A DNA stretch of 64,000 nucleotides from a virus (taxonomy: Duplodnaviria > Caudoviricetes), in the IMG/VR virus record IMGVR_UViG_2974666105_000001, positions 15,100-79,099 of that record, one strand, 5' to 3'. A program made the translations under genes and the position numbers. Positions 3,201-57,994 of this stretch are shown here, in pieces. The notes beneath the pieces are model-generated. The model was not told the origin of the DNA. It ran no database searches and worked only from the letters and a program-made list of their open reading frames with translations. The first letter of the stretch is position 1. Each line of letters opens with the position of its first letter.

Positions 3201-5862
3201 TTTGTAACCATGGGACACGTTTTAGTAAACCGCCACCGACTCTAGCAACTTTTCCAATTTTAGAACCAGTAGTACCAATTCTACCAACGCGACTGCTAAT
3301 TCTCTCAGCATCTTCTGTTGTAACCCCGCCTTTCGCCATTCGGCGTAATACTGAACCTTTCGATCCAGCCTTTTTAGCGGCTCGATACTCAGAGCGAGTT
3401 GTCGTAATTTCTTCTTTGGCGGCCTTTCCAGCCTTTCCAGCCTTACCGCCAGCTCCACCACCGATTCCCCCAGCAACCTCAGATGCTTCTGCTCCAGCAG
3501 CTTCACCGGCAGATGCCCATGCGTCTGCAAGAAGCTTAACGGCTGCTGTTTGTTCGTCGATCTTAGCCACAGCAATCTTACTTGCACTCGACGTATCAAT
3601 TTTATTCGTACTGAATAATTTAGATACGACTGATGCAATTGTACCAGAGTTGCGAATAAAGGCTGCAACAGCACCAGAAACCAATCCAATTGCTGGCACA
3701 AGTAGTGCAACAGAAGCAATGGCCTTTTTAGCGCTTGGATTAAGCTTATCAAACTTATCCATGATGATCGTTAGCGCCTTAGCACCTTTAGTGATATATG
3801 GTAAAATTACTTTACCAAACTCAATCTCTAATGCTTGCAAAGTCGTCTGGAAAATCTTAAGCTGGTTCTGAGACGTCTTTAAGTTCTTTTGAGCCAAGTT
3901 GCCAATATAGTCATTCTTAGCTGATCTCTCAACTTGACCATTTAATTTATCCAATGCTTTATAATTGTCTGTTAAGATACCACCGGCCTGTTGCCCAGTA
4001 GTACCAAAAATAGCATGAAAAACATCAGTACGATCATGTCCAGAAAGATTCTTCATGTGACTGTTTAAAATGCCAAAAATAGCGGACATTGACTTCATTT
4101 TTCCATTTTTATCAGTAAAACTTTTTGTGTTAAGCCCTAAACTCTTTAAGGCGGCTGCTCCGTTTTTAGATGGAGATACTAACGAGTTAATTGTTTTTCT
4201 TAGCCCAGTACCAGCTTTGTCAGATTCAAGACCGTTGTTCGATAAAATACCCATAGCACTAGCTGTTTCAGATATACTAAATCCAGCTTGATGAGCCGTG
4301 TTACCAACATATTCCATACCTTTTCCTAGGCTTTGGAAGTCAGTAGCAGTCATATCAGCGGCATAAGCCATTTCGTTAACAACCGTTGAGGTATTTTTTG
4401 CCATTTGAGCTGTTGACTTAGCTCTTAAACCAAATGACTCCAGTGTCTGTGTTGAAACAGCGGTAACATCATTGAAATCATCACCAGAAGCAATCGCACC
4501 TTTAACAAGAGTTTTCATAGCCCCAATCGCTTGGCTAGAACTATAACCACGCTTGATTAAATCTTGATACCCATCAGCAACTTGTTTTTGTGTCAACCCG
4601 TATTGCTTAGAGTATGACTTTGTATTCTTTTCCATTAGCGCCATGTTGGCGTTAATTTCTTTAGTCCCCTCAGTGTTTGAGCTGACGATTAAGTTTTTGG
4701 TTTTATTAAAAGATGTTTGTAATTCAACAGCAAGCGATGTACCATGCTTAGCGACTGCTGCCATACCCATTGTTGCATATCCTGCTCCGCGAGAAACTGA
4801 TCCCAAAGCAGTAGCAACACCAGAATACTTTTTCTGCATTCCACCAATCTTATCACTAAACGAGTTAATAGTATTGCCAGATAACCCTACGTGCTTGTTG
4901 AGTGACTTGATCTTGGCGTCAGTTTCACCGATTTTAGCACCAAGTTCGTTTACTTTCTTAGCCTGTGCTGAGTAAGCAGCAGAAGTTTCACCAGAACGAG
5001 ATTTTACCAATGACAATTCTGACATTTCTGTCTTGTATTGATTTAATAAACCCTTTTTAGATCCAACTAAAGACCTTAATTCTACCGACATTGCGGTATA
5101 ATTCTTGCCTTCTGACCTTAAACGGTTAGCTAATGATTCTGATATTTCACTGGTTGATTTTGAATACTGTTGCATTTGATGCAAACCAGTAGCATATTTT
5201 CTCTGAGCTTCTTGGGCCTTTAAATAAGACTCTCTGGCTTTTGAGACAATTGCTGATTGCTTGTTAATATCAACGCCGGAAGCACTAGAGCTTGATTTTA
5301 ATAGCTTGTAAGCTTTTTCTTCACGACCAAGTTCGTCTTTTAGATTACGAGTCTTGGCGGCGAGCAGCTCCTTGTGTTTGGCGTTGGCGTCAGTCTCTTT
5401 ACCCTCAGCAATAAGTGCTTTTTCACTAGCTTCTAATGAGTTAGTGTATGCTTGGTGAGATTTCTTAGCACGGTCAATCCCAGTTGAATATCTAATTTCG
5501 GCAGATCTAGCAGAATCTAGCTCACTTTTGCGACGGTTTAAAGCCGCATTACTCTTAGTGAGTTCGTTAGTCCAACGCATAACTGCCAACTTTTCTTTGT
5601 CGGTTGTTGCATTGGCATTCTTCAAAGCATCTGCTAATCTCTTGTTATAATCAGTTTGTAACTCAATTTCTTTGTTCAGTCCAGTGATTTTGGCGTCCAG
5701 TGCAGCAGCACTATCGCCGGCAGCTTGCATCGCTGAGGAGCTTGAACGCCATTCTTGGCCTGTGGAGCGAATGGCCCCTTTTAATGTACGCAAACTCGAT
5801 TGAGCCTTTGTATCATTGATATTAACGTTATATGTTAAACTACCATAGGCGGCTTGCTTCAT
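202..5862 (-). CDS. Tape measure protein with C-terminal lysozyme-like domain
   Basis: 1886 aa; Ala/Gly/Lys-rich helical sequence, TP901-type core (TDFQSLGKGMEYVG), Trp-periodic repeats, C-terminal GILGNWIQESNLNP...GLGQWT motif; canonical position. Confidence 0.95.
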   Translation of the reverse strand: MKQAAYGSLTYNVNINDTKAQSSLRTLKGAIRSTGQEWRSSSSAMQAAGDSAAALDAKITGLNKEIELQTDYNKRLADALKNANATTDKEKLAVMRWTNELTKSNAALNRRKSELDSARSAEIRYSTGIDRAKKSHQAYTNSLEASEKALIAEGKETDANAKHKELLAAKTRNLKDELGREEKAYKLLKSSSSASGVDINKQSAIVSKARESYLKAQEAQRKYATGLHQMQQYSKSTSEISESLANRLRSEGKNYTAMSVELRSLVGSKKGLLNQYKTEMSELSLVKSRSGETSAAYSAQAKKVNELGAKIGETDAKIKSLNKHVGLSGNTINSFSDKIGGMQKKYSGVATALGSVSRGAGYATMGMAAVAKHGTSLAVELQTSFNKTKNLIVSSNTEGTKEINANMALMEKNTKSYSKQYGLTQKQVADGYQDLIKRGYSSSQAIGAMKTLVKGAIASGDDFNDVTAVSTQTLESFGLRAKSTAQMAKNTSTVVNEMAYAADMTATDFQSLGKGMEYVGNTAHQAGFSISETASAMGILSNNGLESDKAGTGLRKTINSLVSPSKNGAAALKSLGLNTKSFTDKNGKMKSMSAIFGILNSHMKNLSGHDRTDVFHAIFGTTGQQAGGILTDNYKALDKLNGQVERSAKNDYIGNLAQKNLKTSQNQLKIFQTTLQALEIEFGKVILPYITKGAKALTIIMDKFDKLNPSAKKAIASVALLVPAIGLVSGAVAAFIRNSGTIASVVSKLFSTNKIDTSSASKIAVAKIDEQTAAVKLLADAWASAGEAAGAEASEVAGGIGGGAGGKAGKAGKAAKEEITTTRSEYRAAKKAGSKGSVLRRMAKGGVTTEDAERISSRVGRIGTTGSKIGKVARVGGGLLKRVPWLQTGLAAMNLIGINKKNAGSKVGKTAGQLGGTLAGGAIGGGIGGVAGGAIGTLFGPAGTVVGAKLGSMGGSLAGSWLGGSKGQDWGGKLGKKIQKSMKNFKMPKMSTIKKSIGNWFGGIGKWIGKLKMPHINFGKMFKGFKLPNIGKMFKNFKFPKISGIGKWFSGLFKGIKMPSLSSLGKSISSSFGKMFSGLGKTGIGKSVGKMLSGIEKTIWKWVKGIGRFFAPAVKAIQKPFQKIGKWFKTSPVGKSIVTIGKDIAGVVKGIGKFIAALGAIAGKLAAIGLAKLFKGIGKAVRNMGKFFTDVGKKIKRWASDVRKTIDKMVRPIQKTMGKIGKGISKGWNGALKIVTKFVKNIYHTATRWIGKLLSPLAKAWHSISKTASKWWKSISGTVGKWAHNIWKGVTKWVKKILSPVAKAWQSVSKTASRWWKSISGTIGKWVHNIYNSVVKWFRKILSPVAKLWKSVSSTIGGWVGKIWKKIKTFGNNMSSFFKKLPGRIASALRGAWHGIWNSMAGIVNNGLIHPVVNGWNAVADAINGVEKKIGVGKSFRLGKASYSSSKISTYAKGTAGGPALVNDAKSKYWREAYKLPDGRMGMFPNKRNIIVNLPKGTEIAKGEDARMVQPYLERGQGIPAFAGATGWLDGIGSAIGGAVHGVGNWFSGVETKASKLIDNLGKMIKSPGKYLSAMIASPLNALAKGGGLAGKAIGMTGDIVVHTLTSWFKKMLKAGQDEQLVGNVKLSGSVASRARALAKAFKQGYPASQNGGIAGILGNWIQESNLNPSAVNSSDHGTGLGQWTFTRETGLRSWLRRHGYAWNSAAGQIGYALNEPGANGMLKAVLRMTSPTAAAQKFFATWESGGAMDSTGGTRLANASAAYRYIKGMEHGGLIDKAQTINIAEKNKPEMVVSLTDKDAAIRQLKQSINYLESGSIANSSNNSNNIDNSTLSQLVTLQQQTNALLQALLGSANTPNLAVITDQSIYDSVKRQQKPKDVYNHLIN

Positions 5863-14885: not shown

Positions 14886-15012
14886 AATAATCACCTCAAT
14901 ATATGTAAAGCCCAACTGTGGCATGGGCCAGCCATTTTATTACAGTTGATGGTTATAAAAGAACATGGAAAGAAAACGCCCACCTGTTTTGCTTTATTGA
15001 GTTAAGCTACAA

Positions 15013-15084
15013 GCGAATAATCGGACTCGAACCGATGTTATCAGATTGGAAATCTAATGTGTTGCCCAACTACACTATATTCGC
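15013..15084 (-). tRNA. tRNA-Gly(TCC)
   Basis: Cloverleaf GCGAATA...TTAGA-TTTCCAA-TCTGA...GGTTCGAGTCC...TATTCGC; no encoded CCA. Confidence 0.9.
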
Positions 15085-15642: not shown

Positions 15643-15714
15643 CTGCTCGGGCTGGGATCGAACTAGCGATCTCTTGATTAACAGTCAATTATTCTACCGC
15701 TGAACTACCGAGCA
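15643..15714 (-). tRNA. tRNA-Asn(GTT)
   Basis: Cloverleaf TGCTCGG...ATTGA-CTGTTAA-TCAAG...TTCGATC...CCGAGCA G. Confidence 0.9.
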
Positions 15715-42507: not shown

Positions 42508-42903
42508 TTAATAATTATTCAATCTATTAATTAATGTGTCAAGTTTTCTTGATAATTCTGAGGTGTCGATCTGCACTGACATCGCTAATTGTTTGTTAAA
42601 GTTTTCTTGCTTTTTCTTTTGAGATTCTTTCAGCAAATCGTCAGTCGACACAAAACGATCGCCGTTATCAACAATACCACCCTTTAAACTATTTTCCCAA
42701 TTCCTCCAACGTTTCGCATATTCAATAATTTTCCCGATTTCGACATTAACATTGTCTTTCTTGCCAGCACGGTCAGCATACTTAAAAATATTAAACTTAT
42801 ATGCCCCTCGCATCTCGTCTTCTGTGAGAATTTTTTCCATATGATCCAACAAATCTTTCCCACCATGTTGATAGTGTTCTGGGATAATCTTTTCTTCTGC
42901 CAT
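42508..42903 (-). CDS. DUF3310-like protein
   Basis: PEHYQHGGKD...GAYKFNIFKYADRAGKK. Confidence 0.8.
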   Translation of the reverse strand: MAEEKIIPEHYQHGGKDLLDHMEKILTEDEMRGAYKFNIFKYADRAGKKDNVNVEIGKIIEYAKRWRNWENSLKGGIVDNGDRFVSTDDLLKESQKKKQENFNKQLAMSVQIDTSELSRKLDTLINRLNNY

Positions 42904-42914
42904 TTCAGTTCCTC

Positions 42915-43199
42915 CTATTTAAATTCAATTACGGTGTCTGATAAACTAATTTCATCACTGTCTTCTCCAAATACCAATGAAACTGGTTTCCCACTCCCAT
43001 AGACAGCTGCAACACCACTAGCATTGTACTTTTCTTTCAGCTTGTTAGCAACAATATCCATAATGAATTCACTTCTGTTAATTGTTATGACATTCCGATT
43101 TTTATCATAATCGAACAAATCTAATAACTCTAGTAGCATATCCTGCTGAGCACTGATTTTATCATATTCGTTTTCATTCATAATAATCTTTTTATCCAT
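42915..43199 (-). CDS. Hypothetical protein
   Basis: GGAG RBS before MDKKIIM. Confidence 0.6.
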   Translation of the reverse strand: MDKKIIMNENEYDKISAQQDMLLELLDLFDYDKNRNVITINRSEFIMDIVANKLKEKYNASGVAAVYGSGKPVSLVFGEDSDEISLSDTVIEFK

Positions 43200-43482
43200 T
43201 CTTAATTGTCTCCTCTGCGTATGATTGTAATTTATGATCAAAATAAGACATAATTTCTTTGTCAATATCTTTATTAGTTGCAATAATCGGTTCATCATCG
43301 GTACTAAACCACATGATTAAGCAATCCGTGTCTCCAAATACAAATGGATAACTAATCTTAGTGACGCTTTTACCGTCCTGATCATAACGTTCAAGTTCTA
43401 CATTTTGTTCATTGTAAGACCCATCAAAGAAATGATCTAAAAAGTCATACATATTTTCAACTGTTAATTTCTTTTTTCTCAT
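43192..43482 (-). CDS. Hypothetical protein, first gene of the leftward unit
   Basis: GGGGA RBS; promoter at 43520-43548. Confidence 0.7.
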   Translation of the reverse strand: MRKKKLTVENMYDFLDHFFDGSYNEQNVELERYDQDGKSVTKISYPFVFGDTDCLIMWFSTDDEPIIATNKDIDKEIMSYFDHKLQSYAEETIKNG

Positions 43483-43519
43483 ATTATATTCCCCGTCTTT
43501 ATTTTATTAACTGAATACA

Positions 43520-43589
43520 ATTATAGCATTAAAACATCCAATTGTAAACAAAACTTTATGTTGACTTAAAAATAATTCCGTGTTAATAT
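43520..43589. promoter_or_regulatory. Divergent sigma70 promoter pair
   Basis: Minus: TTTACA-N17-TATAAT (43520-43548); plus: TTGACT-N17-TAATAT (43561-43589). Confidence 0.8.
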
Positions 43590-43596
43590 TGTATTT

Positions 43597-44150
43597 ACAA
43601 ACAAATGAAAACTTAATAAGCTACAAATATTCAACGCAGACAACCTACTGCGGAACTAACAAATGGGTATGTGCTGGCATGGCTTTAGGGAAATTGAAGT
43701 AATGTCAGTCGAGTCAAGTAGCAAAAAACTCCAAAAGCTACTAATCATTAAGATGAACGCTAAACCGACAAAATATCGGCAAGCGGAAGATGGGGTGGAA
43801 AGGGACAAGGTTCGCGCGGCTTGTGCTAAGTTAGACACTGGCAGATATGGTTTCTGTTATTTTCTATAAATAGGCACCGTGACTTAACTCAATCCGAAAG
43901 GCAGACTAACAGATATGTGAAAACTAAGCTTCTGGGACGGACGGCGTAGAAGCAGAAAGTTAGTTGATTGGTTGAAATACCAATTAGAGACAATTTCTCT
44001 TGTATACGCGATGCGCTCAGTGTTGCGAAACTAATTACAAGTCTTTGCTCCTTAGTCAGTGTATTAGTCTGCACTTTTTCGTTGACTAAGGCAAAGACTT
44101 GTTCCGCTCAACAACTCGTATTACAAAACTGGTAGCCGAGACTTTCGTTA
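43597..44150 (+). ncRNA. Large structured ncRNA, probably ROOL family
   Basis: Own promoter; no credible ORF; long hairpin ACAAGTCTTTGC/GCAAAGACTTGT with inner CCTTAGTCA/TGACTAAGG; long-range AGCGGAA/TTCCGCT; GAGTCAAG and GGAAAG..AAGGTTC segments resemble ROOL as I recall it (not verified by search). Confidence 0.6.
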
Positions 44151-44206
44151 CTTTAAATCCTAACTAAACAAAACAAATAACAACCAAACTTGATATTAAT
44201 TGGATT

Positions 44207-44234
44207 TGGTTTTTGGTTTTTAGTTTTTAGTTTT
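44207..44234 (+). repeat. 7-bp tandem repeat T(G/A)GTTTT x4
   Basis: TGGTTTT TGGTTTT TAGTTTT TAGTTTT; can pair with the upstream A/C-rich arm 44161-44189. Confidence 0.8.
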
Positions 44235-44521
44235 GGTGACACGTATGTGTGTCACGGTTGGTGCTAGACTAATAACGCTTATTAGCTACTAGCGCGACGT
44301 TGCCCGAAAGATGGTGAGAAACTGGCCCTTCGGCAGGAACACTATTCAGTTGATCCCAGCTAAGCCGAGCTGTTTTCTAAAGCGAGACCCTTAGCACTAT
44401 GCTAATTAGAACATATTTGGACTTATGTTAGTTAATTATGAGATTACAAAAAAGTGGTTGAAAAAACTATATGTTGTGTTATAATTAAATCATATAAAGT
44501 ATTAATAAGGAGTAATTTGTA

Positions 44522-45160
44522 ATGAGTGGTATTGAATCTTGGAAACTACAACCAGAGTTTTGTTTTATCGAAGTGAGCACATTAGGTAACGTGCGCACAC
44601 TTGATAGAGTAGTACCATGTGGAAAAGGGACACAATTCGTAAAAGGGCGAGTGTTGAAGCAACAATGTGACAAAAACGGTTATCTACGTGTGCATTTCCG
44701 CGGAAATGGAAAAAATTTTTTTAGGTTCGTCCATCGTCTTGTGGCTCAAACTTTTATTCCTAACCCTGATAACCTACCAGAGGTTAATCACAAGGATTGT
44801 AATCCAACAAACAATAACGTTTCAAATTTGGAATGGATTACACGTAAAGGTAACAATCAATATCGGAACAAATATGGAGTATCATACAAAGAAGCCGCGC
44901 GAAAGAAACCTGTATGTGCAATCAACTTAGATACCTTAGAAGTATACCGTTTCCCCTCACAAATGGAAGCGAGTCGCGTTTTGGGAGCTAACGTAGGACA
45001 TATTAATGATGTTATATTAGGAAAACGAAACCACACGCACGGTTATTGGTTTACAAACGCCGATAACAATGCCATAGAAGCCACCAGAGTTAAGCTTGGC
45101 AACAGCATGGCCCGTAAGGTTGAAGAATTGATGATTAATAAAGAATTACAATTAGTATAG
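44522..45160 (+). CDS. Free-standing HNH homing endonuclease
   Basis: VHRLVAQTFIPNPDNLPEVNHKDCNPTNN.VSNLEW; close paralog of 27853 and 30769. Confidence 0.9.
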   Translation: MSGIESWKLQPEFCFIEVSTLGNVRTLDRVVPCGKGTQFVKGRVLKQQCDKNGYLRVHFRGNGKNFFRFVHRLVAQTFIPNPDNLPEVNHKDCNPTNNNVSNLEWITRKGNNQYRNKYGVSYKEAARKKPVCAINLDTLEVYRFPSQMEASRVLGANVGHINDVILGKRNHTHGYWFTNADNNAIEATRVKLGNSMARKVEELMINKELQLV

Positions 45161-46042: not shown

Positions 46043-46480
46043 ATGGGATTACAACATTATGGAAACAAGGTAGAATATGATGGATTCACATTTGATAGCA
46101 CTAAAGAGTTTAACTTTTACAAGAGATTCATTAAAGATTGCGGCTATACTTTTAAAGTTCACGAAAAATTCAATCTAATTGAAAAGATAAAAATAAACGA
46201 TAAAATGTCCATTAGAAGTCTGACATATAAGCCTGACTTCATTATATTCAACAAGGATGGTGGTATTAAGCACGTTTATGATGTCAAAAATGGATATACT
46301 CCTTATGCGATTGATCGTGGAGCTGCAATATCGTTTAAATTGTTTGCTAAAAAATACGGCATTCCTGTTGAAGTTGTTGTTATCAGAACGCATGATTTTA
46401 AGACAAAAATATTGGGGACAACAAAGAAATATGATGTAAAAATTAGAAACGATGTTGACTATGATTGGAGAGAAAACTGA
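46043..46480 (+). CDS. DUF1064-like PD-(D/E)XK endonuclease
   Basis: YDGFTFDSTKE, TYKPDFII, VYDVK motifs. Confidence 0.8.
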   Translation: MGLQHYGNKVEYDGFTFDSTKEFNFYKRFIKDCGYTFKVHEKFNLIEKIKINDKMSIRSLTYKPDFIIFNKDGGIKHVYDVKNGYTPYAIDRGAAISFKLFAKKYGIPVEVVVIRTHDFKTKILGTTKKYDVKIRNDVDYDWREN

Positions 46481-46797
46481 TGTATAGAGAATTTAAGGGG
46501 GGACTTGACGGAGTAACCTTGGATGAAATTAAAGAAGAATTTTTTGAAGATTACTATGATCAAGAACACTCAGCAGATGAGCGAGTCGAGGACGTTAAGA
46601 GATTTATTAAAGAACAAAGCAACGGTTTCTTTGAGGATTACTATTGTGAACAATACTTAGCTAAAACACCATCCCAACAAGTTATGTCTGATCAGGACAA
46701 TGTTTGTCATTTTGTTGAGATTATGGCATCATATGTTATTACTGGCGAAGATGATGATTTACCATATGATAAAGATTTATTTTTTATCGGAAATTAG
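46465..46797 (+). CDS. Hypothetical acidic protein
   Basis: Operon context. Confidence 0.6.
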   Translation: MERKLMYREFKGGLDGVTLDEIKEEFFEDYYDQEHSADERVEDVKRFIKEQSNGFFEDYYCEQYLAKTPSQQVMSDQDNVCHFVEIMASYVITGEDDDLPYDKDLFFIGN

Positions 46798-57758: not shown

Positions 57759-57832
57759 GCGTCCTTAGCTCAAATGGATAGAGCAGGAATCTTCTAAATT
57801 TCAGGTTGTCGGATCGTACCCGACAGGACGCA
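57759..57832 (+). tRNA. tRNA-Arg(TCT)
   Basis: GCGTCCT...GGAAT-CTTCTAA-ATTTC...AGGACGC A; atypical T-loop ATCGTAC. Confidence 0.88.
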
Positions 57833-57921: not shown

Positions 57922-57994
57922 GTGTCCTTAGTATAATTGGATAAAACACATGGCTCCTACCCATGAGATGACAGTTCAATTCTGTCAGGACACA
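57922..57994 (+). tRNA. tRNA-Arg(CCT)
   Basis: GTGTCCT...CATGG-CTCCTAC-CCATG...AGGACAC A. Confidence 0.88.

What the first reader, a model, noticed from the sequence alone, without database searches (positions are those of the whole stretch)
43597..44150. ~550-nt promoter-driven ornate ncRNA (ROOL-like) at the central divergence point
Seen: a dedicated consensus promoter, no credible ORF, dense hairpins and long-range pairings. Established: ROOL RNAs occur in Lactobacillales and their phages, form RNA-only nanocages and have no known function. The family assignment rests on recalled motifs. I saw no UACAU in it, consistent with survival alongside MazF. A phage with ROOL, odd tRNA-like RNAs and an RNA-processing toxin would be a good model for finding ROOL function.
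Basis: partly seen in the sequence, partly recalled or inferred. Interest (0 to 1): 0.7.

Follow-up and report, generated by a model that had tools for sequence, protein, structure and literature searches.

The report
Large GEBRO-like phage RNA, not ROOL
This Lactiplantibacillus plantarum phage has a gene, with its own promoter, for a roughly 535-nt intricately folded non-coding RNA that is not ROOL; it belongs to an uncatalogued family that shares core modules with the plasmid-borne GEBRO RNA, adding to the few very large microbial RNAs of unknown function.

Summary
Window 43597-~44130 (+) is a non-coding RNA gene behind a sigma-A promoter that is conserved in every homolog with a 5' flank. 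No ORF is conserved.

I found homologs at 60-95% identity in 14 sequences of about 9 lineages. All come from virulent L. plantarum phages (Tybeckvirinae siphoviruses, LP65-like Herelleviridae) or metagenome contigs. A curated 91-pair structure is 98% paired, against 33-44% in slid controls. 41 pairs show double-sided changes, and 0 of 500 shuffles match this. The structure includes an 8-bp long-range pseudoknot (43688-43695 with 43992-43999) that pairs perfectly in 13 of 13 sequences.

The ROOL reading is not supported. The Rfam ROOL and GOLLD models give no hit even at E<=10. One related contig carries a true ROOL (140.6 bits) 2.8 kb from its copy of this RNA.

The closest known family is GEBRO (RF02988). 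Shared features, in the same order, are:
- an 11-nt GAAA-receptor hairpin;
- a three-way junction with an invariant GAAA tetraloop;
- a UGAAAU hairpin;
- a long-range helix immediately after that hairpin.

A model built only from the phage family finds the GEBRO 3' domain reciprocally (E about 1e-8). The RNA still fails GEBRO membership (37 bits against a cut-off of 284.7) and carries about 250 nt of extra domains.

Function is unknown. My best guess is a compactly folded trans-acting RNA that serves the replicon. Other agents of this scan found the same family on sister phages.

The parts
43561..43589 (+). Sigma-A (sigma-70-type) promoter of the RNA: TTGACT, 17-nt spacer, TG-extended TAATAT. 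The TSS is inferred at about 43597.
   Evidence: A -35/-10 pair is conserved at the same position in 12 of 12 homologs with a 5' flank, despite divergent spacers.
43520..43548 (-). Back-to-back divergent promoter (TTTACA-17-TATAAT, TG-extended) for the leftward operon.
   Evidence: 11 of 12 consensus matches. This is a consensus match only.
43597..44130 (+). Conserved core of the structured ncRNA, about 535 nt.
   Evidence: Alignments A1-A3, nhmmer screen, pair counts. Many invariant G-U pairs fix the strand as +.
43673..43709 (+). Hairpin H2. Its large loop carries the 5' strand of the long-range pseudoknot PK1 (43688-43695, GGGAAAUU).
   Evidence: The outer and middle stem covary (7 of 12 pairs have double-sided changes).
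43759..43784 (+). Hairpin H5, the 11-nt GAAA-tetraloop-receptor hairpin. The window, Nyseid and GutP1 carry a variant (CUAAAC in the window and Nyseid, CUAACC in GutP1, each paired with GCAAG). Most relatives have the canonical GCUAAG...UAUGC.
   Evidence: It aligns to the GEBRO receptor hairpin. Per-sequence display. The helices covary (helices 6 and 7).
43809..43889 (+). Domain D3, a long irregular hairpin closed by NGUU/AACN. It has no counterpart in GEBRO.
   Evidence: Single-sequence MFE folds give the same architecture in nearly all 14 homologs, with many compensatory variants. Pair counts. Model R2 finds nothing in GEBRO plasmids.
43906..43986 (+). Three-way junction with an invariant GAAA tetraloop (43919-43922), followed by the adjacent 8-bp hairpin with a UGAAAU loop (43965-43986). 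This is the GEBRO-like 3' domain.
   Evidence: Rfam GEBRO local hit at 43895-43986: 37.1 bits, E=1.6e-8. Reciprocal model R1 hits the GEBRO of pSt0 and pUA140 at 40.9 and 38.7 bits; the next best hit is 10.9 bits. Covariation.
43992..43999 (+). 3' strand of PK1 (AAUUUCUC), pairing with 43688-43695.
   Evidence: 8 bp, 100% paired in 13 sequences, 5 covarying positions.
44037..44102 (+). Long hairpin of the 3' extension. The base is 12 bp perfect in the window, and the apical region has a conserved U-run.
   Evidence: Inverted repeat I5. Helix 19 is 100% paired with 2 covarying pairs.
44103..44130 (+). Highly conserved, apparently single-stranded 3' segment (…CAACAACUCGUAUUACAAAAC) that ends the core.
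   Evidence: Alignment A3.
44160..44240 (+). A-rich/U-rich long hairpin between the core and the tail. It may be a terminator or a DNA-unwinding stretch.
   Evidence: Sequence. A similar A-run followed by a U-run is present in GutP1, Satyr, P1, L065 and L019. Its function is inferred only.
44238..44400 (+). Separable conserved non-coding 'tail' module, with a terminator-like hairpin at 44357-44372.
   Evidence: It is conserved in 12 lineages, including Lpa804-type phages that lack the core, and is absent from Lenus-type phages that have the core. Its first hairpin covaries. Terminator-like site.

Best explanation
The locus is an autonomous gene for a large structured non-coding RNA. The conserved core is about 535 nt, possibly continuing into a roughly 250-nt tail. 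It is transcribed by the host sigma-A RNA polymerase from its own strong promoter at the point where the phage's two early, DNA-metabolism gene blocks diverge.

The RNA belongs to an uncatalogued family. I found it only in virulent L. plantarum phages of two unrelated lineages and in metagenome contigs.

Its core is an expanded relative of the plasmid-borne GEBRO RNA. The two share, in the same order:
- an 11-nt GAAA-receptor hairpin;
- a three-way junction with an invariant GAAA tetraloop;
- a UGAAAU hairpin;
- a long-range helix formed by the strand just 3' of that hairpin.

The phage RNA adds 5' hairpins, an 80-nt inserted domain and a 135-nt 3' extension.

How it works is inferred, not shown. 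The tetraloop-receptor contact and the long-range pseudoknot would lock the RNA into a compact globular fold, and that fold is the functional entity acting in trans. GEBRO sits by plasmid replication origins, and this RNA sits amid replication genes in Tybeckvirinae. My best single guess is therefore a role in propagating the replicon (initiation or copy control of DNA replication) through binding of a host or phage factor.

Sub-probabilities:
- real structured RNA gene: 0.95;
- shares ancestry with the GEBRO core: 0.65;
- replication-linked function: 0.3;
- a ROOL/GOLLD-like RNA particle acting on host translation, tRNA or defence: 0.3.
For: - Promoter: a consensus promoter is conserved in 12 of 12 homologs.
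- Strand and structure: z=-3.6 on the + strand only. 98.1% of 1234 cells are paired, against 33-44% in slid controls. 41 of 91 pairs have double-sided changes. 0 of 500 shuffles match.
- PK1 is perfect in 13 of 13 sequences, with 5 covarying positions.
- No ORF is conserved.
- Autonomy: the Tybeckvirinae and LP65-type contexts share no flanking protein family.
- GEBRO link, 3' domain: Rfam local hit of 37.1 bits, E=1.6e-8, to model positions 249-338. The reciprocal phage-only model R1 hits the GEBRO 3' domain in two streptococcal plasmids at 40.9 and 38.7 bits, against a background of 10.9 bits or less.
- GEBRO link, receptor: the receptor hairpin aligns to GEBRO's GCUAAGUC...GGAUAUGC.
- GEBRO link, topology: the full GEBRO model has a long-range helix (113-121 with 342-350) directly after the same hairpin.
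- The GAAA tetraloop is invariant in 14 of 14 sequences.
- Replication theme: GEBRO lies between the ss- and ds-origins of pUA140 (PMC5737381). The window's flanking genes include dNK, DUF1064 and a homolog of a gene annotated as 'replication protein'. The cumulative GC skew has its minimum at the promoter.
Against: - Transcription is not shown. RNA-library contigs cover the locus but cover neighbouring genes equally.
- Only two modules plus the topology are shared with GEBRO. Models of the 5' part and of domain D3 find nothing significant in GEBRO plasmids.
- LP65's copy alone gives no Rfam GEBRO hit. The tetraloop and receptor are generic RNA modules, so convergence is possible.
- In LP65-type phages the RNA lies by a tRNA array and NAD-salvage genes, not replication genes.
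- There are no iterons in the region.
- The GC-skew switch is confounded by the switch in gene orientation.
- The window's own receptor hairpin is a non-canonical variant.
Confidence: 0.55

Rival explanations
1. It is a member, or a divergent member, of the ROOL family, and would form ROOL-type RNA-only nanocages.
For: It resembles ROOL in size, in being a Lactobacillales-phage RNA and in having an ornate fold. In LP65-type phages it lies near a tRNA array, as ROOL often does (ROOL background).
Against: The ROOL model gives no hit at gathering threshold or at E<=10 on the region alone. As a positive control, a true ROOL scores 140.6 bits in L020, which also carries a separate homolog of this RNA. 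In the window the tRNAs are 14-28 kb away.
Confidence: 0.02
2. It is a cis-acting replication element. The transcript, or the structured DNA, serves as an origin primer in the manner of ColE1 RNA II or the T7/T4 promoter-primed origins, with the AT-rich stretch at 44160-44240 as the unwinding element.
For: It has a strong promoter, a roughly 550-nt structured RNA and then an AT-rich run. It lies between divergent early/DNA-metabolism operons at the GC-skew minimum. GEBRO lies between plasmid origins, and its authors proposed that it helps or regulates replication.
Against: An RNA-type tertiary motif (GAAA tetraloop with 11-nt receptor) and a conserved pseudoknot point to a folded RNA rather than an R-loop primer. 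The cassette moves between phage families with unrelated replication modules, and in LP65-type phages it sits away from replication genes. Lenus-type phages lack the AT-rich hairpin and the tail. There are no iterons.
Confidence: 0.15
3. It is a very long cis-regulatory 5' leader (riboswitch-like or an antitermination platform) of the rightward early operon.
For: It is always co-oriented with the downstream genes. No strong canonical terminator follows the core directly.
Against: The downstream genes differ completely between lineages: an HNH endonuclease, small hypothetical proteins, or orf82 and PnuC. The downstream genes have their own promoter-like sites, for example 44458-44485, which matches 11 of 12 positions. 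A mobile HNH cassette and the tail can be inserted between the RNA and the operon without loss of the RNA.
Confidence: 0.07
4. It is a real new RNA family, but its resemblance to GEBRO is convergent reuse of common modules (tetraloop, receptor, three-way junction) rather than shared ancestry.
For: Only about 120 of 535 nt match. The 5' part and D3 have no GEBRO counterpart. The Rfam hit is lineage-dependent. The 5' strand of the long-range helix sits in a hairpin loop here but in a linker in GEBRO.
Against: The similarity includes unpaired sequence (CGAA.G.A.AC..ACA, AAGCA.AAAGU, UUGAAAUA, GCUAAGUC...GGAUAUGC). The modules come in the same order, and the long-range helix sits at the same place. 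The reciprocal E-values are about 1e-8, with a clean gap to background.
Confidence: 0.25

Closest known systems
GEBRO RNA motif (Rfam RF02988; Weinberg et al. 2017, PMC5737381), e.g. S. mutans pUA140 and S. thermophilus pSt0
   Same: Both are carried by mobile replicons of Lactobacillales and are GC-enriched relative to their surroundings. The shared modules come in the same 5'-to-3' order: the 11-nt GAAA-receptor hairpin (GCUAAGUC...GGAUAUGC), a three-way junction with a GAAA tetraloop hairpin and a 6-bp hairpin with a large loop, an adjacent hairpin with a UUGAAAU(A) loop, and then a covarying long-range helix. The function of both is unknown.
   Different: - The window scores 37 bits against a cut-off of 284.7.
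- The RNA is about 535 nt, against about 350 for GEBRO.
- GEBRO's 5' hairpins (model positions 1-112) and its 122-192 region have no detectable counterpart.
- The phage RNA has extra hairpins H1-H4, the 80-nt domain D3 and a 135-nt 3' extension.
- The host replicon is a virulent phage rather than a rolling-circle plasmid.
- The window's receptor is a variant.
ROOL RNA (Rfam RF03087)
   Same: Both are about 550-600 nt, ornate, have pseudoknots and are encoded by phages of Lactobacillales. The function of both is unknown. In LP65-type phages both lie in the same tRNA-rich region.
   Different: The covariance model gives no hit. ROOL co-occurs as a separate gene. The motifs differ. Oligomerisation was not tested.
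GOLLD RNA (Rfam RF01998)
   Same: Both are large phage-borne structured RNAs of Lactobacillales. GOLLD likewise has a conserved part plus a variable part.
   Different: The covariance model gives no hit. This RNA is smaller. No tRNA is embedded in it.
ColE1 RNA II pre-primer (own knowledge)
   Same: Both are roughly 550-nt, promoter-driven, structured non-coding transcripts in a replication-control region.
   Different: There is no sequence or structure similarity. No antisense RNA I-type partner is evident. Tertiary motifs suggest a globular fold rather than a DNA-hybrid primer.

Membership tests
ROOL (RF03087) | Match to the Rfam covariance model at or above 99.1 bits | tested here: not met
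   No hit at gathering threshold on the window and none at E<=10 on 43400-44600. Positive control: L020 scores 140.6 bits.
ROOL (RF03087) | [quoted passage not shown] | tested here: inconclusive
   The curated structure has 19 helices, at least one three-way junction and one proven pseudoknot. It was not compared helix by helix with ROOL.
ROOL (RF03087) | Frequent location next to tRNA islands in phages or prophages | tested here: not met
   The window's tRNAs lie at 15.0-15.7 kb and 57.8-58.0 kb, 14-28 kb from the RNA. The feature is met only in LP65-type relatives.
ROOL (RF03087) | RNA-only homo-oligomeric nanocage | not testable with these tools
   This needs cryo-EM, SEC-MALS or DLS of the transcript (background).
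GEBRO (RF02988) | Full-length match to the Rfam covariance model at or above 284.7 bits | tested here: not met
   Only a local hit of 37.1 bits to model positions 249-338. Genuine GEBROs score 290-347 bits.
GEBRO (RF02988) | 3' domain: three-way junction with a GAAA hairpin, plus the UUGAAAUA hairpin (model 259-338) | tested here: met
   (E=1.6e-8). Reciprocal model R1 finds it in pUA140 and pSt0 at E=7e-8 and 2e-8. It covaries within the phage family.
GEBRO (RF02988) | 11-nt GAAA tetraloop receptor hairpin (model 193-219) | tested here: met
   Profile alignment of H5 to the GEBRO receptor. The motif is fully canonical (CUAAG/UAUG) in 9 of 14 family members. L112 and L020 have UAAG in the 3' strand. 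The window, Nyseid and GutP1 have a variant with GCAAG in the 3' strand.
GEBRO (RF02988) | Long-range helix between an upstream segment and the strand just 3' of the last hairpin (model 113-121 with 342-350) | tested here: met
   PK1, 43688-43695 with 43992-43999, starts 5 nt after the hairpin. GEBRO structure line. The local context of the 5' strand differs.
GEBRO (RF02988) | 5' hairpins and the central 122-192 region of the model | tested here: not met
   Models R3 (5' part) and R2 (D3) give only background-level scores in GEBRO plasmids.
GEBRO (RF02988) | Plasmid context between the single-strand and double-strand origins | tested here: not met
   The locus is in a virulent phage genome. 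BLAST finds no relative in 72,556 plasmids.
GOLLD (RF01998) | Match to the Rfam covariance model | tested here: not met
   No hit.

The most novel reading that the evidence does not exclude
This RNA, GEBRO and possibly the unrelated-looking 0.95-kb RNA-like region that occupies the same slot in Lpa804-type phages may define a superfamily of replicon-borne giant RNAs of Lactobacillales phages and plasmids. The shared tetraloop-receptor core would build a self-assembling or factor-sequestering particle that controls replicon copy number or replication initiation. That would be an RNA-based device shared by plasmids and lytic phages.
Probability: 0.2. Interest if true: 0.85.

Novelty: new variant of a known kind. 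Interest (0 to 1): 0.66.

Why it matters
Bacterial and phage RNAs above about 500 nt with conserved tertiary architecture are very rare. The known examples are rRNA, group I and II introns, RNase P, OLE, GOLLD, ROOL and raiA. Nearly every one studied has turned out to do unusual biochemistry or to form unexpected assemblies.

This family is absent from Rfam 15 and from the literature I could search. It has exceptionally clean covariation, and it sits in culturable virulent phages of a tractable food and probiotic bacterium, so it can be tested by genetics. It also gives the obscure plasmid motif GEBRO its first relatives outside plasmids. That points to a function tied to replicon propagation rather than to a particular host gene.

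One relative encodes both this RNA and a true ROOL, which offers a system for comparing two giant phage RNAs side by side.

Tried and rejected
- ROOL and GOLLD assignment: rejected.
- BLAST of the RNA against 72,556 plasmids: no match.
- Motif scans: the strict and relaxed scans of IMG/VR returned only the already known phages, and a looser hairpin motif gave only chance hits. The genome-contig scan of 185k species gave no family member, only chance matches.
- The genome search 'relatives' is not available for virus records.
- The Weinberg 2017 supplement is not held. My guess at the pUA140 accession failed. The plasmid was then found by BLAST with the GEBRO consensus printed.
- Expression: contigs from three RNA libraries in two studies cover 43531-44384, but they cover flanking genes at similar low depth. 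Being contigs, they show no ends or strand. A stretch without cover at 42855-43530, and contig breaks at 44129, are not interpretable.
- Sub-domain models R2 (D3) and R3 (5' part) against GEBRO plasmids: nothing above background. R3 gave hits of 12-13 bits inside both GEBROs, but equal scores occur elsewhere.
- LP65's copy scanned alone against Rfam: no GEBRO hit.
- nhmmer with --max returned nothing because no residues passed its pipeline. I re-ran it with relaxed filter thresholds.
- The Lpa804 slot: no nhmmer, CM or Rfam similarity to this RNA, despite a few short look-alike motifs.
- A closing helix between the 5' and 3' ends, and pairing of the conserved 3' segment: RNAalifold proposals differ between runs and lack covariation. 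Left open.
- A local 11-nt receptor reading of CUAAG/UAUG inside D3: rejected, because covariation supports other pairings there.
- Iterons or direct repeats typical of origins: none.
- The MazF/UACAU argument: no statistical weight.
- Structure-aware MAFFT (Q-INS-i, X-INS-i) is not installed.
- A consensus fold for the tail could not be obtained from the MAFFT alignment.

Full report
**Context.** The window comes from a 79-kb virus record. It is 94% identical in this region to Lactobacillus phage Nyseid (Tybeckvirinae, Lenusvirus), a virulent siphovirus of L. plantarum.

The flagged stretch lies in a 1,040-nt ORF-free gap (43483-44521) between two diverging gene blocks. The leftward block holds small unknowns, a DUF3310 protein and a deoxynucleoside kinase. 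The rightward block holds an I-HmuI-like HNH endonuclease, a DUF1064 protein and a homolog of a gene annotated as 'replication protein'.

**Observation check.**
- Promoter. A sigma-70-type promoter (TTGACT, 17 nt, TG-extended TAATAT) lies at 43561-43589, back to back with a leftward promoter. All 12 homologs whose 5' flank is available have a -35/-10 pair at the same distance from the conserved block, although the spacer sequences differ. That is good evidence for a real transcription start near 43597.
- Strand and fold. The + strand folds better than shuffles (z=-3.6). The - strand does not (z=-1.3).
- Coding. No ORF is conserved in position or frame, and phage P1's copy has none of 25 aa or more on either strand.
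- UACAU. Its absence is real but uninformative. 0.75 sites are expected, so P(0)=0.47, and four homologs have a site.

**Family and covariation.**
- BLAST finds the block, unannotated, in Nyseid, Lenus, Gut-P1, Satyr/Maenad, P1/P2, ATCC 8014-B2 and the unrelated myovirus LP65 (Herelleviridae), at 69-94% identity.
- A motif scan of metagenomes, screened with an nhmmer profile, added six contigs: L019, L020, L065, L081, L104 and L112. This gives 14 sequences in about nine lineages at 60-97% pairwise identity.
- Scans of IMG/VR, of 185k species genomes and of 72k plasmids added nothing. As far as these searches reach, the family is confined to virulent L. plantarum phages.
- On alignment A3, an unbiased scan of all column pairs and a curated 19-helix, 91-pair structure give 98.1% paired cells, against 33-44% when partners are slid by 1-3 columns. 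41 pairs have double-sided changes, against 3-10 in slid controls. None of 500 shuffles reaches the observed values. Many invariant G-U pairs fix the strand.
- The long-range pseudoknot PK1 joins the loop of hairpin H2 (43688-43695) to 43992-43999. It has 8 bp, is perfect in 13 of 13 sequences and shows several distinct sequence variants.
- MAFFT misaligned one helix in the 80-nt domain D3 (43809-43889). Independent single-sequence folds nevertheless give the same architecture in nearly all homologs, with many compensatory variants.

**Not ROOL.**
- The Rfam 15 scan of the whole window at gathering threshold finds only four tRNAs.
- A permissive scan of the gap alone (E<=10) finds no ROOL or GOLLD match.
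- The tool does detect ROOL when it is present. The LP65-like contig L020 has a ROOL of 140.6 bits (cut-off 99.1) inside its tRNA array at 4913-5478. The same contig has a homolog of the present RNA at 1590-2124 on the other strand.

The two RNAs are distinct genes that can coexist in one phage.

**Relation to GEBRO.**
- The only significant Rfam similarity is a local match of 43895-43986 to GEBRO positions 249-338: 37.1 bits, E=1.6e-8, against a family cut-off of 284.7.
- I retrieved genuine GEBROs by BLAST with the consensus printed. They are S. mutans pUA140 (347 bits) and S. thermophilus pSt0 (290 bits).
- Reciprocal test. A covariance model built only from the phage family's segment (R1, 114 positions) finds exactly the GEBRO 3' domain in both plasmids. 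Scores are 40.9 and 38.7 bits, E=2e-8 and 7e-8, and the next best hit in 19 kb scores 10.9 bits.
- Second shared block. A relaxed profile comparison shows that hairpin H5 (43759-43784) aligns with GEBRO's canonical 11-nt GAAA-tetraloop receptor hairpin (GCUAAGUC...GGAUAUGC). Nine of 14 family members have the fully canonical CUAAG/UAUG motif. L112 and L020 have UAAG in place of UAUG. The window, Nyseid and GutP1 have a variant with GCAAG in the 3' strand, in which the G·U wobble is replaced by A·C (window, Nyseid) or C·C (GutP1). An A·C pair could be isosteric with G·U; that point rests on my own knowledge.
- The GAAA tetraloop in the three-way junction (43919-43922) is invariant in 14 of 14 sequences.
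- Topology. In the GEBRO model a long-range helix (113-121 with 342-350) is formed by the strand 3 nt after the UUGAAAUA hairpin. PK1 is formed by the strand 5 nt after the equivalent hairpin here.
- Limits. Models of the 5' part (R3) and of D3 (R2) find nothing above background in GEBRO plasmids. LP65's copy alone gives no Rfam GEBRO hit.

I read this as an expanded relative of the GEBRO core (about 0.65 probability of shared ancestry) that fails GEBRO membership as defined by Rfam. The other possibility is convergent reuse of common modules.

**Transcription unit and the tail.** The conserved core ends at about 44130. Downstream features, in order:
- An A-rich/U-rich long hairpin at 44160-44240.
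- A second conserved non-coding module at about 44238-44400, with a terminator-like hairpin at 44357-44372.
- A promoter-like site at 44458-44485.
- The HNH gene.

The tail occurs without the core in Lpa804-type myoviruses. The core occurs without the tail in Lenus-type phages. The two are therefore separable modules, and whether they form one transcript here is unknown.

RNA-library contigs from two studies cover 43531-44384. They cover neighbouring genes at similar depth, so they do not prove transcription.

**How it most likely works.**
- Shown: an autonomous promoter-plus-RNA cassette, a fold under selection with an RNA-type tertiary motif pair and a long-range pseudoknot, and transfer between unrelated phage lineages of one host with no shared flanking protein family.
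- Inferred: the compact fold acts in trans on a host or phage component.
- For a replicon-level role. GEBRO lies between the ss- and ds-origins of pUA140, and its discoverers suggested it helps or regulates replication (PMC5737381). This RNA sits amid DNA-metabolism genes at the GC-skew minimum in Tybeckvirinae. A paper on a staphylococcal Kayvirus states that the large ncRNA (the ROOL class) of an L. salivarius megaplasmid may be linked to replicon copy number (PMC9241854).
- Against a replicon-level role. In LP65-type phages the RNA lies by tRNAs and NAD-salvage genes. There are no iterons.
- The main functional alternative is a ROOL/GOLLD-like particle acting on translation, tRNAs or defence. 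I rate it about equally likely (0.3 each).
- A cis-acting primer or origin (0.15) and a cis-regulatory leader (0.07) are less likely, for the reasons given under the rival explanations.

**Novelty.** The family is not in Rfam 15, and I found no paper describing it. Other agents of this scan reached a similar reading on sister phages. I used those notes as leads and re-tested the GEBRO link independently.

**Verdict.** This is a real, well-supported large structured RNA. It is not ROOL. It is a new, enlarged variant of the GEBRO kind, and its function is open.

Noticed in passing
window 44238-44400 (also L008:2501-2739, L006:3054-3356 and others): A second conserved non-coding 'tail' module lies downstream of the RNA core. 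It is present in 12 phage lineages, including Lpa804, Bromius, Dionysus and Iacchus, which lack the core. It is absent from Lenus-type phages. Its first hairpin covaries. A terminator-like hairpin lies at 44357-44372. No Rfam match.
   Followed up: partly
window 44522-45160 (+): An I-HmuI-like HNH homing endonuclease (NUMOD4 + HNH_3 + I-HmuI NUMOD-like domains) with its own promoter-like site at 44458-44485. It is absent at this position in Lenus, Satyr, LP65 and 8014-B2, and present in Nyseid, Gut-P1, P1 and Lpa804. It looks like a free-standing mobile insertion.
   Followed up: partly
L020:4913-5478 (+), metagenome contig JXWR01002552.1: A bona fide ROOL RNA (140.6 bits) lies embedded in an array of about 14 tRNA genes of an LP65-like phage contig. 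The same contig also carries this RNA family 2.8 kb away, so one phage has two different giant RNAs.
   Followed up: partly
L008:1540-2500 (+), Lactobacillus phage Lpa804: In Lpa804-type (Harbinvirus) myoviruses, the slot upstream of the tail holds a different ORF-free region of about 0.95 kb. Its MFE z-score is -3.2. It is 96-98% conserved in Bacchae, Semele, Dionysus, Bromius and Iacchus, and partly conserved in LpeD. It has no Rfam hit and no detectable similarity to this RNA. It may be another large ncRNA.
   Followed up: partly
L008:464-1525 (-): An unannotated 353-aa ORF in the Lpa804 record, in the position of LP65 orf81 (367 aa, no Pfam or PHROG family).
   Followed up: no
window 15012-15084, 15643-15714 (-); 57759-57832, 57922-57994 (+): Four tRNA genes in two pairs, far from the RNA. 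One (57922-57994) has two non-canonical pairs in the Rfam alignment.
   Followed up: no
window 46465-46797 (+): A small 110-aa protein with a weak PHROG match to a sigma-factor family (phrog_5767, E=2.9e-5) in the rightward early operon.
   Followed up: no
L182:5167-5510 and L183:7528-7870: In both streptococcal plasmids, GEBRO lies about 400-500 nt upstream of, and co-oriented with, a hypothetical gene followed by a gene for a type IV secretion DNA-binding-domain protein. This arrangement resembles the phage RNA at the head of a rightward operon.
   Followed up: no
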